Assembly: GCF_024700885.2 (NCBI RefSeq)
Contig: NZ_CP117016.1
Length of the DNA stretch: 64,000 bases
Direction: 5' to 3' (one strand)
From: Escherichia coli
GTDB lineage: Bacteria > Pseudomonadota > Gammaproteobacteria > Enterobacterales > Enterobacteriaceae
Below are positions 45,686 through 48,600 of the stretch, piece by piece. Position numbers: made by a program. Within the stretch, counting starts at the first letter, position 1. Each line of letters starts with the position of its first letter.

Positions 45686-48600
45686 TTAAGTGCGCGCTTC
45701 AACTCACCCCTGCAATATTTTGTCCATCACGCGCCCCGGCAGCAGGCGCTTGAGCACCATTACCGCCCAGGTCACCAGCGTTACCGGATAGCGCATCTTC
45801 GGTTTCTCGCTAATAAAAGCATGGCGCACTTTGTCGACCACCGCTTCCGGCCCCAACGTAAAGCGGGCGGCGATGCCGGGATTTTCGACCGGTTTATCGC
45901 TTTGTGTCTGGTTGACGTTGTCGGTGAAGCGAGTACGAATGGGACCGGGTTCGATCAGGCTAACTTTAATTCCGCTGTGGCGCAGCTCCATGCGCAGCGC
46001 ATCCGACCACGCCTCCAGCGCATATTTACTGGCTGCGTAAGCGCCGCGACCCGGTGTGGAGATTAATCCCATCACCGATGAGGTCATCACAATACGCCCT
46101 TCACCGTGCGGTAACATCGCGGGTAACAGGCGCATGGTGAGCTGGTGTGCGCCGAAAAAGTTGGCGGAAAACTGCTGTTCCATCTGCGCACGGCTGATGG
46201 TGGAAAGGGGGCCATACATGCCGAATCCGGCATTGTTAAAGATCCCATACAGACAATTATCGGTCAGGGCGATCACTTCGTCGGCTGCGCGATCAACACT
46301 TTCTGGCGAATCCAGATCGATCAACACGCCGGTAAATCCCATGCTGTTCATACGCTCAACATCATCCGCTTTCCGGCAACCTGCCAGCACATGAAAACCC
46401 TGGCGTTTTAATTCGAGCGCGCTTTCCAGGCCAATTCCACTGGAACATCCGGTAATTAAGACCGATTTTTGCATAACTTTACCTGTCAGGATCTCCGTTG
46501 CTTTATGAGTCATGATTTACTAAAGGCTGCAACTGCTTCGCCATCCAGTCGGCAATAAACGGCTGGGCGTCGCGGTTGGGATGAATACCGTCATCCTGCA
46601 TCCATTGTGGCTTGAGGTAGACCTCTTCCATAAAAAAGGGCAGTAGCGGAACATCAAACTCTTTGGCGAGTTTGGGGTAAATGGCACTAAAGGCTTCATT
46701 ATAACGGCGACCATAGTTTGCAGGCAGACGTATTTGCATTAACAATGGTTCAGCGTTGGCGGCTTTGACATCCTGCAATATCTGGCGCAGCGTTTGCTCG
46801 GTTTGTTGTGGCTGAAAACCACGCAAACCGTCATTGCCGCCCAGTTCTACCAGCACCCAGCGCGGCTGATGCTGTTTCAGCAGAGCCGGAAGGCGCGCCA
46901 GCCCTTGTTGCGAGGTGTCGCCGCTGATGCTGGCATTGACTACCGACGTTTTACTCTGCCACTTATCATTCAACAAGGCAGGCCAGGCCGCGCTGGCAGA
47001 CATTCGATACCCGGCGCTCAGGCTATCACCCAGAATCAATAACGTGTCCGCTGCGGCGGCACGGAAGGTTAACAGGACCAGGAACAGGAAGGGCAAATGC
47101 CAGCGGAAAACATTGTTGAAGTTCATCATCTTAAGAAGTCCGTCGGTCAGGGGGAGCATGAACTCTCCATCCTCACCGGAGTTGAGCTGGTTGTCAAACG
47201 TGGCGAGACCATCGCACTGGTGGGCGAGTCGGGATCGGGTAAGTCAACCTTGCTGGCGATCCTCGCCGGGCTGGATGACGGCAGCAGTGGCGAAGTGAGT
47301 CTGGTGGGACAACCGCTACATAATATGGACGAAGAAGCGCGGGCAAAGTTGCGCGCGAAGCACGTCGGCTTTGTTTTTCAGTCATTTATGTTAATTCCTA
47401 CCCTTAACGCGCTGGAAAACGTCGAGCTTCCGGCGCTGCTGCGTGGTGAGAGTAGCGCAGAAAGTCGTAACGGGGCAAAAGCGTTGCTCGAACAGTTAGG
47501 ACTGGGTAAACGTCTGGATCATCTTCCGGCACAGCTTTCCGGCGGCGAACAGCAACGAGTGGCGCTGGCGCGAGCTTTTAATGGTCGGCCTGATGTGCTG
47601 TTTGCCGACGAACCCACCGGCAACCTTGACCGCCAGACGGGCGATAAAATTGCCGACCTGCTGTTTTCCCTCAACCGTGAACATGGCACCACGTTGATTA
47701 TGGTGACCCACGACCTGCAACTGGCGGCACGCTGCGACCGCTGCTTACGGCTGATGAACGGGCAGTTGCAGGAGGAAGCATGATTGCACGTTGGTTCTGG
47801 CGCGAATGGCGCTCGCCGTCGCTATTAATTGTCTGGCTGGCGCTAAGCCTGGCGGTGGCCTGCGTGCTGGCGCTGGGCAATATCAGCGATCGCATGGAGA
47901 AGGGCTTAAGCCAGCAAAGCCGGGAGTTTATGGCGGGCGATCGGGCGTTGCGCAGTTCGCGCGAAGTGCCGCAAGCGTGGCTGGAGGAAGCGCAAAAGCG
48001 CGGCCTGAAAGTCGGCAAGCAGCTGACTTTCGCCACCATGACATTTGCAGGCGACACACCGCAGCTGGCGAACGTCAAAGCGGTGGATGATATCTACCCG
48101 ATGTATGGCGATCTGCAAACTAATCCCCCTGGCCTGAAACCGCAGGCGGGCAGCGTATTGCTGGCCCCACGCCTGATGGCACTGCTTAACCTGAAAACAG
48201 GCGACACCATCGACGTGGGTGATGCCACCTTGCGGATTGCCGGAGAAGTGATTCAGGAACCGGATTCCGGTTTTAACCCCTTCCAGATGGCTCCGCGTCT
48301 GATGATGAATCTGGCGGATGTCGATAAAACCGGAGCCGTGCAGCCGGGAAGTCGGGTCACCTGGCGCTATAAATTCGGCGGCAACGAGAACCAGCTCGAC
48401 GGCTATGAGAAATGGTTGTTACCCCAGCTTAAACCCGAACAACGCTGGTACGGTCTGGAACAGGACGAAGGCGCGCTGGGGCGCTCGATGGAACGCTCGC
48501 AACAGTTCCTGCTGCTTTCGGCGCTTCTGACCTTGCTGCTGGCAGTGGCAGCGGTGGCGGTGGCGATGAATCATTACTGTCGCAGTCGCTACGATCTGGT

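What the first reader, a model, noticed from the sequence alone, without database searches (positions are those of the whole stretch)
47097..47129. Divergent tesA and ybbA coding regions overlap at their 5' ends
With the tesA start at the signal-peptide Met (47129, minus strand) and the ybbA start at 47097 (plus strand), the two start regions overlap by about 33 bp. Their promoters must therefore lie inside each other's coding sequence, which implies transcriptional interference or shared regulation.
Basis: seen in the sequence. Interest (0 to 1): 0.2.

Follow-up and report, generated by a model that had tools for sequence, protein, structure and literature searches.

The report
Known tesA–ybbA head-to-head gene overlap
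Two E. coli genes on opposite strands, tesA and ybbA, really do share their first 30–33 bases and have promoters inside each other, but this rare, conserved arrangement is already annotated and published.

Summary
The window is E. coli chromosome. tesA (minus strand, start 47129, or 47126 in RefSeq/PGAP) and ybbA (plus strand, start 47097) overlap by 33 or 30 bp, in exact antisense codon register. K-12 MG1655 is annotated the same way.

Both starts hold up. The ybbA ATG and the second tesA ATG are present in 79/80 and 80/80 Enterobacteriaceae species. Synonymous variation almost vanishes across the overlap and the two ribosome-binding regions.

Published start-site mapping puts the tesA transcription start at 47161, inside ybbA. 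It is driven by a TTGACA-17-GAGGAT promoter in ybbA codons 25–34, whose -35 element is invariant in 79 species. The mapped ybbA start sites are weak and lie 155–570 nt upstream, inside tesA. Published p19 capture shows abundant double-stranded RNA over tesA.

The promoter inference is therefore supported. A regulatory consequence is not shown: tesA mRNA is unchanged in RNase III mutants.

The overlap is noted in the 2025 YbbAP–TesA structure paper, and the pair is listed as a divergent excludon by ExcludonFinder (2025). It is already known, so interest is low.

The parts
47097..47129 (.). Shared coding segment. It holds ybbA codons 1-11 (MPAENIVEVHH) and, on the other strand, tesA codons 1-11 (MMNFNNVFRWH). 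The span is 33 bp with the K-12 start and 30 bp (47097-47126) with the PGAP start.
   Evidence: The segment is nearly invariant in 80 species, wobble positions included.
46503..47129 (-). tesA CDS, encoding the periplasmic SGNH thioesterase I/protease I/lysophospholipase L1. The signal peptide is residues 1-26 and the mature protein starts at ADTLL.
   Evidence: NCBIfam equivalog NF007819 scores 413 bits against a cut-off of 270. PDB chains of the mature protein start at Ala27.
47097..47783 (+). ybbA CDS, the ATPase of the YbbAP type VII ABC transporter.
   Evidence: NCBIfam equivalog NF007879 matches residues 1-228 to profile positions 1-228 at 478 bits. PDB 9GE6-8 hold the same sequence. LolD, MacB and MJ0796 align from their residues 2-8 to YbbA residues 4-9.
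47085..47093 (+). ybbA Shine-Dalgarno element (CAGGAAGGG), lying inside tesA codons 13-15.
   Evidence: Anti-SD duplex energy is -7.0 kcal/mol, beyond the 10th percentile of background 25-mers. The element is conserved in 80 species. A p19-captured dsRNA cluster covers 47071-47094.
47130..47161 (-). tesA 5' UTR, 32 nt from the published TSS at 47161. It includes the SD-poor, AU-rich initiation region and lies inside ybbA codons 12-22.
   Evidence: The TSS is 519021(-) in U00096.2 with 45 reads (Kim et al. 2012 supplement). The coordinate map is checked. ybbA codons 12-18 show almost no synonymous variation.
47169..47197 (-). tesA sigma-70 promoter inside ybbA codons 25-34: -35 TTGACA (47197-47192), a 17-nt spacer, and -10 GAGGAT (47174-47169).
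   Evidence: A relaxed scan predicts a TSS near 47162, against the mapped 47161. The -35 is identical in 79/79 species. The -10 is AAGGAT in 54 and GAGGAT in 25. Codons I25, G28, V29, V32, V33 and K34 have zero synonymous entropy.
46717..46755 (+). Candidate ybbA promoter inside tesA: TTTGCA, an 18-nt spacer and AACAAT, with the Cappable-seq TSS at 46755.
   Evidence: It is weak (relative read score 2.45) and not conserved outside Escherichia (-10 AACAAT in 6/63).
46697..46710 (+). Second candidate ybbA start: a -10-like CATTAT (46697-46702) and the TSS at 46710 from Kim et al. (2 reads). The same bases read TATAAT on the minus strand (tesA Tyr143-Asn144).
   Evidence: TATAAT is kept in 61/63 species with no synonymous change. 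Which strand uses it is unresolved.
46632..47094 (.). Span of p19-captured RNase III dsRNA clusters inside tesA (46632-46656, 46821-45, 46998-47028, 47071-94). It shows that plus- and minus-strand RNAs coexist and pair.
   Evidence: PMC7373196 supplementary tables, converted from U00096.2 coordinates by subtracting 471860.
45704..46513 (-). ybbO, downstream of tesA on the same strand, with an 11-bp overlap (46503-46513).
   Evidence: PMC12646458 describes a putative tesA-ybbO operon.
47780..50194 (+). ybbP, the permease partner, overlapping the ybbA stop by 4 bp (ATGA).

Best explanation
This is a real and evolutionarily fixed head-to-head overlap of two protein-coding genes. tesA and ybbA are read from opposite strands and share their first 10-11 codons in exact antisense register. 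With no intergenic DNA, each gene's expression signals sit in the other's coding sequence. tesA is transcribed from a sigma-70 promoter in ybbA codons 25-34 (TSS 47161). ybbA-ybbP is transcribed from weak, scattered starts 155-570 nt upstream, inside tesA. The two mRNAs are therefore complementary over at least about 220 and up to about 630 nt, a span that includes both ribosome-binding sites, and they form RNase III-processed duplexes in vivo. Shown: the overlap, its conservation, the nested tesA promoter and TSS, the antisense RNA and the dsRNA. Inferred: that this face-to-face layout causes polymerase collision or antisense pairing that tunes TesA against its transporter partner YbbAP. The layout may equally be a tolerated by-product of compaction.
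For: The sequence and ORFs are, and the K-12 and PGAP annotations. Across 80 Enterobacteriaceae species the ybbA ATG is kept in 79/80, tesA ATG codon 2 in 80/80, and the register never shifts. Synonymous-codon entropy is 0.16 bits for ybbA codons 1-18 against 1.14 bits for codons 37-228 (p=3.6e-10). For tesA codons 1-11 it is 0.02 against 1.04 (p=1.9e-6). ybbA has a strong SD and no other usable in-frame start before codon 42, and homologous ATPases begin at the same point. The tesA TSS and promoter come, and the plus-strand TSSs. RNA-seq gives tesA antisense 48.7 against sense 29.7 RPM, and p19 dsRNA of 182-2396 RPM at tesA against 9-86 at its neighbours. ExcludonFinder lists tesA-ybbA among 16 divergent excludons. 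The YbbAP-TesA paper notes the operon overlap and the physical complex. Distant TesA homologs (41-70% identity) sit -33 to +52 bp from a divergent ybbA homolog.
Against: I found no direct translation-initiation data for either start; two TIS or N-terminomics supplements hold nothing on these genes. tesA has no real SD (-3.2 kcal/mol, close to the background median). The ybbA TSSs are weak (2 reads, or relative read score 1.5-2.5) and disagree between datasets. The candidate ybbA promoter at 46717-46746 is not conserved. tesA sense RNA does not change in rnc mutants, which argues against strong RNase III-dependent control under those conditions.
Confidence: 0.85

Rival explanations
1. There is no coding overlap. 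tesA translation starts at the TTG at 47096 (codon 12), directly abutting the ybbA ATG, as in older annotations that give a 197-aa TesA.
For: A TTG or GTG is present at this codon in 70/80 species. Many database entries are 197 aa, and K. pneumoniae KPN_00472 is 594 nt. Four of about ten distant loci have start codons that merely touch or share CATG.
Against: The codon is TGG or CTG in 10/80 species, whereas the ATG at codon 2 is kept in 80/80. It has no SD (-1.5 kcal/mol). It would leave a signal peptide with no charged n-region, losing Arg9. An R-W pair at the start of the hydrophobic core also appears in the distant homologs L091 and L088. The NCBIfam equivalog profile matches from residue 1.
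Confidence: 0.05
2. The overlap is larger, at 63 bp. tesA starts at the upstream in-frame ATG at 47159, which has a strong SD-like GAGGAUGGA 6 nt upstream.
For: The ORF is open from 47159. Its SD-like duplex energy of -7.9 kcal/mol is the best of all candidates. ATG, GTG or TTG is present there in 71/80 species.
Against: The mapped TSS at 47161 leaves only 2 nt before this ATG, so the SD-like bases, which are the promoter -10, are not on the mRNA. The codon simply mirrors the ybbA His/Gln21 codons CAT, CAC, CAG and CAA, and varies synonymously. The two codons after it vary non-conservatively (P/T/S and L/F/I). Antisense RNA over ybbA is very low (0.5 RPM), so longer minus-strand transcripts are rare.
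Confidence: 0.04
3. The overlap is real but functionally neutral. Start-codon drift in a pair that was already tightly head-to-head produced it. The strong conservation reflects only double coding and ribosome-binding constraints, with no interference-based regulation.
For: Head-to-head spacing drifts from -33 to +52 bp among distant lineages. The ybbA promoter positions are weak and not conserved. tesA mRNA is unchanged in rnc mutants.
Against: Every sampled lineage keeps the pair within 55 bp or less, so nested promoters are a persistent feature. The tesA promoter inside ybbA is held at synonymous sites in 79 species. TesA and YbbAP form one complex, which gives a reason for coupled expression.
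Confidence: 0.45

Closest known systems
E. coli K-12 MG1655 tesA (b0494) / ybbA (b0495) as annotated and as described in the YbbAP-TesA structure paper (PMC12646458)
   Same: It is the same locus with the same 33-bp overlap. [quoted passage not shown]
   Different: Nothing differs structurally. The window comes from another strain, with 31 SNPs and no indels across 46000-48000. RefSeq/PGAP genomes call the second Met, which gives 30 bp.
Divergent excludons (overlapping 5' transcripts of neighbouring opposite-strand genes; ExcludonFinder, PMC12288877)
   Same: tesA-ybbA is one of the 16 divergent excludons reported for MG1655. Overlapping transcripts and RNase III-derived dsRNA are documented.
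   Different: Classical excludons overlap in UTRs and give mutually exclusive expression, often of opposing functions. Here the coding sequences themselves overlap and the products are partners in one complex. Reciprocal expression has not been shown.
Transcriptional interference between convergent (face-to-face) promoters, such as coliphage 186 pR/pL (from general knowledge)
   Same: Two promoters fire toward each other across shared DNA. The tesA TSS at 47161 faces plus-strand TSSs at 46528-46942.
   Different: The phage case has measured, promoter-strength-dependent interference. No such measurement exists for this locus.

Membership tests
Divergent (head-to-head) overlapping CDS pair | Two CDSs on opposite strands share nucleotides at their 5' ends under the annotated starts | tested here: met
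   47097-47129, or 47097-47126 with the PGAP start.
Divergent (head-to-head) overlapping CDS pair | The ybbA start codon is the real one | tested here: met
   It is the only ATG/GTG/TTG between the upstream stop and codon 42. It has a strong SD and is conserved in 79/80 species. Homologous ATPases and the equivalog profile begin at the same point. No direct initiation data were found.
Divergent (head-to-head) overlapping CDS pair | The tesA start codon lies upstream of 47097 | tested here: met
   ATG at codon 2 is kept in 80/80 species, and codon 1 is ATG in 64/80. The TSS at 47161 gives a 32-35-nt leader. The alternative at codon 12 is not conserved and gives an uncharged n-region. This evidence is indirect, because the signal peptide is cleaved and no TIS data were found.
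Excludon | Transcripts of the two neighbouring genes overlap in antisense | tested here: met
   Published data were read here: TSSs, antisense reads over tesA of 48.7 RPM, and the ExcludonFinder list.
Excludon | The overlapping RNAs form RNase III-processed duplexes | tested here: met
   p19-captured dsRNA at tesA is 182-2396 RPM, with four clusters between 46632 and 47094.
Excludon | Expression of one gene lowers expression of the other (mutually exclusive output) | tested here: inconclusive
   The only relevant numbers are that tesA sense RNA is unchanged in rnc-14 and rnc-38 (27.2 and 27.4 vs 29.7 RPM) while antisense RNA falls (18.0 and 31.7 vs 48.7). No promoter-perturbation data exist.
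Convergent-promoter transcriptional interference | Two active promoters face each other | tested here: met
   The tesA TSS at 47161 (-) faces plus-strand TSSs at 46942, 46755, 46710 and 46528.
Convergent-promoter transcriptional interference | Cis-dependent reduction of one promoter's output by the other | not testable with these tools
   This needs reporter or promoter-knockout experiments.
TesA (NF007819) and YbbA (NF007879) equivalog families | Full-length score above NCBI's curated cut-off | tested here: met
   413 bits against 270 for TesA, and 478 bits against 336 for YbbA.

The most novel reading that the evidence does not exclude
The persistent zero-spacer, head-to-head layout would be a selected device. 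It spans -33 to +52 bp across distant Proteobacteria-like lineages, with tesA's promoter frozen inside ybbA. Antisense pairing of the two ribosome-binding regions and polymerase collision would set the ratio of the periplasmic hydrolase TesA to its membrane partner YbbAP. That would be an excludon that balances partners of one complex rather than switching between opposing functions.
Probability: 0.15. Interest if true: 0.4.

Novelty: already known. Interest (0 to 1): 0.15.

Why it matters
Divergent coding overlaps are the rarest class of gene overlap in E. coli. This one links a widely engineered enzyme (TesA, used for free fatty-acid production) to the transporter it docks onto. Any edit to the first 60 nt or so of either gene changes the other gene's N-terminus, ribosome-binding site or promoter. 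People who knock out, recode or overexpress tesA or ybbA need to know this. As a discovery it adds little, because the overlap, the overlapping transcription and the protein complex are all published.

Tried and rejected
- The strict sigma-70 consensus scan found no promoter in 46400-47900. A relaxed scan was needed, because the tesA -10 matches only 3 of 6 positions.
- No inverted repeats were found in 47040-47230, and there were no Rfam hits in 46200-48000. Nothing suggests an operator-like palindrome or a structured RNA element.
- I looked for direct start-codon evidence in TRAINSPOTTER N-terminomics and TetRP. Neither holds anything on tesA or ybbA.
- The Thomason dRNA-seq paper is not held. 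The ExcludonFinder supplements are not held. The minus-strand part of the Cappable-seq table is cut off.
- The TTG-47096 and ATG-47159 starts were considered and rejected, as set out under the rival explanations.
- One locus (L041) has a 1-nt shift in the junction. I treated it as an assembly indel and did not analyse it further.
- I did not use the metagenome scan. The finding did not justify its cost.

Full report
**What is in the sequence.** The window is E. coli chromosome. The segment 46400-47900 occurs at 95% identity or better, covering at least 80% of its length, in 5415 of 5426 complete E. coli genomes. The plus strand carries ybbA at 47097..47783. Its ATG is the first ATG/GTG/TTG after the in-frame stop at 47070, and the next one is GTG at codon 42, inside the Walker A region. 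The minus strand carries tesA, ending at 46503, and MMNFNNVFRWH... begins at 47129. The two coding regions therefore share 47097-47129, which is 33 bp. K-12 MG1655 is annotated identically (tesA 519139..519765, ybbA 519733..520419). RefSeq/PGAP genomes start tesA at the second Met (47126), which gives 30 bp. The frames are in exact antisense register. tesA ATG-ATG is the complement of ybbA His10-His11, and the ybbA ATG is the complement of TesA His11.

**Are the start codons real?** For ybbA the case is strong.
- It has a strong Shine-Dalgarno element, CAGGAAGGG, at -7.0 kcal/mol, beyond the 10th percentile of background.
- It has no alternative start.
- LolD, MacB and MJ0796 align from their residues 2-8 to YbbA residues 4-9.
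- NCBI's equivalog profile matches residues 1-228 to positions 1-228.

For tesA the evidence is indirect. The signal peptide is removed, and all PDB chains start at Ala27, ADTLL. tesA has no real SD (-3.2 kcal/mol, near the background median). Its initiation region is AU-rich and predicted to be unpaired.

I compared 80 Enterobacteriaceae species from one GTDB-wide scan.
- The ATG at tesA codon 2 is present in 80/80. Codon 1 is ATG in 64 and ACG in 16.
- The ybbA ATG is present in 79/80. The exception is a 1-nt shift that I take to be an assembly error.
- No indels occur in the overlap.

Two alternative tesA starts fail.
- **TTG at 47096.** This would give no overlap and is used in older 197-aa annotations. 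The codon is TGG or CTG in 10/80 species. It has no SD, and it would remove the only positive charge of the signal peptide's n-region.
- **Upstream ATG at 47159.** It has an SD-like GAGGAUGGA, but those bases are the promoter -10 and lie upstream of the mapped TSS. The codon simply mirrors the synonymous CAT/CAC variation of ybbA His21.

**Constraint on the DNA.** Synonymous-codon entropy across the 79 usable ybbA sequences is 0.16 bits for codons 1-18, against 1.14 bits for codons 37-228 (Mann-Whitney p=3.6e-10). For codons 19-36 it is 0.64 bits (p=0.0014). For tesA codons 1-11 it is 0.02 against 1.04 bits (p=1.9e-6). ATG CCA GCG GAA are identical in all 80 sequences, and the next codon, AAC, in 78. 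The stretch just outside the tesA CDS, CTT AAG AAG TCC GTC GGT CAG, is also almost invariant; it is the last 21 nt of the tesA leader. The frozen block, roughly 47082-47150, therefore covers the ybbA SD, both start codons, the shared codons and the tesA initiation region.

**Where the promoters are.** Kim et al. 2012 (PMC3415461, supplement) map a tesA TSS at 519021(-) in U00096.2 with 45 reads and a 32-nt leader. I checked the coordinate map: there are no indels between K-12 and the window across 46000-48000. That TSS is window 47161, inside ybbA codon 22. A relaxed scan finds TTGACA (47197-47192), a 17-nt spacer and GAGGAT (47174-47169), predicting a TSS near 47162. The strict scan missed it because the -10 matches only 3 of 6 positions. 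The -35 is identical in 79/79 species, and the -10 is AAGGAT or GAGGAT. The ybbA codons under these elements (I25, G28, V29, V32, V33, K34) have zero synonymous entropy.

For ybbA the picture is weaker. Kim et al. list TSSs at window 46710 and 46942, with 2 reads each. Cappable-seq (PMC4782308) lists 46308, 46528 and 46755, with relative read scores of 1.5-2.5, and nothing between 46756 and the ATG. TTTGCA-18-AACAAT at 46717-46746 fits the 46755 start but is confined to Escherichia. CATTAT at 46697-46702 fits the 46710 start and is conserved in 61/63 species, but the same bases read TATAAT on the tesA strand. All of these lie inside tesA or ybbO.

**Consequences that are documented.** In the p19 dsRNA study (PMC7373196), plus-strand (antisense) reads over tesA exceed sense reads in wild type, at 48.7 against 29.7 RPM. 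Antisense reads are 0.5 RPM over ybbA and 1.3 over ybbO. p19-captured dsRNA is 182-2396 RPM for tesA, against 11-86 for ybbA and 9-25 for ybbO. Four listed duplex clusters fall at window 46632-46656, 46821-46845, 46998-47028 and 47071-47094, and the last covers the ybbA SD. ExcludonFinder (PMC12288877) lists tesA-ybbA among the 16 divergent excludons found in at least 50% of 58 MG1655 transcriptomes. Because the CDSs overlap, that classification is nearly automatic whenever both genes are expressed.

**Consequences that are not documented.** tesA sense RNA is essentially unchanged in two rnc mutants, at 27.2 and 27.4 RPM. I found no experiment in which one promoter was perturbed and the other gene was measured. 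Transcriptional interference or antisense control remains a reasonable inference from the face-to-face geometry. It is not a result.

**Beyond Enterobacteriaceae.** From a 50%-clustered library search I looked up contigs for TesA representatives at 41-70% identity. A divergent ybbA/ybbP-type ABC pair sits next to tesA in every contig that had room for one. The start-to-start spacings are:
- -33 bp in L083, with the same promoter layout;
- -2 bp as a shared CATG in L084, L091, L094 and L097;
- 0 bp in L086;
- +17, +21, +25 and +52 bp in L095, L096, L088 and L089.

A spacer far too short to hold two promoters is thus a long-standing property of this gene pair. The 30-33-bp coding overlap is the Enterobacterales version of it.

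**How unusual, and how new.** The six other divergent pairs annotated in this window are 145-486 bp apart. Huvet and Stumpf counted 586 co-oriented, 75 convergent and only 2 divergent overlaps in E. coli (PMC4161906). The arrangement is therefore rare, but it is not new. It has long been in the K-12 annotation. The 2025 YbbAP-TesA cryo-EM paper states that the operons partially overlap and uses this as support for a functional link, with TesA docking on YbbP (PMC12646458). The transcript overlap is also catalogued.

**Verdict.** Novelty is 'already known' and interest is low.

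Noticed in passing
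window 46698-46703: A perfect TATAAT on the minus strand (tesA Tyr143-Asn144) is kept in 61/63 species with no synonymous change. The plus strand reads CATTAT, just upstream of a weak published plus-strand TSS at 46710. It could be a conserved -10 element for an internal promoter toward ybbO or for ybbA. No ybbO TSS is listed in the Kim et al. file as held.
   Followed up: partly
L084, L091, L094, L097 (junctions at about 2501, 454, 2001 and 447): In four distant TesA/YbbA-type loci the two divergent start codons share the palindrome CATG, a 2-nt overlap. This looks like a recurrent solution in this gene pair.
   Followed up: partly
window 46503-46513 and 47780-47783: Two same-strand overlaps flank the finding. 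ybbO starts 11 bp before the tesA stop, and ybbP starts in the ATGA that ends ybbA. The five-gene cluster therefore has essentially no non-coding DNA.
   Followed up: no
window about 14770-38720: This strain carries a roughly 17-kb BapA-related adhesin gene (siiEA) with a TolC-family protein, a type I secretion ATPase and a HlyD adaptor, between ybaT and cueR. A further YadA-like gene block sits between cueR and ybbJ. From the K-12 gene numbering (b0486, b0487, b0488 are neighbours) these appear to be insertions relative to K-12.
   Followed up: no
PMC7373196 Table S1c (tesA row; window 46503-47129): Antisense reads over tesA fall in both RNase III mutants (48.7 to 18.0 and 31.7 RPM) rather than rising. 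This is the opposite of what simple dsRNA stabilisation would predict.
   Followed up: no
L057 (CACSKA010000001.1): A contig titled 'Chryseobacterium sp. 18061' carries a tesA-ybbA locus whose TesA is 88% identical to E. coli TesA and looks the same as 'Citrobacter sp. 18056' (L062) at every junction feature tabulated. The assembly is probably mislabelled or contaminated.
   Followed up: no
protein list; KPN_00472: Database TesA entries for near-identical genes come in lengths of 194, 197, 204, 207, 208 and 218 aa and longer. Annotation pipelines handle this divergent overlap inconsistently, and several avoid it by choosing the codon-12 TTG.
   Followed up: partly
window 47630: Kim et al. list a weak plus-strand TSS (3 reads) inside ybbA, 150 nt upstream of ybbP.
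   Followed up: no
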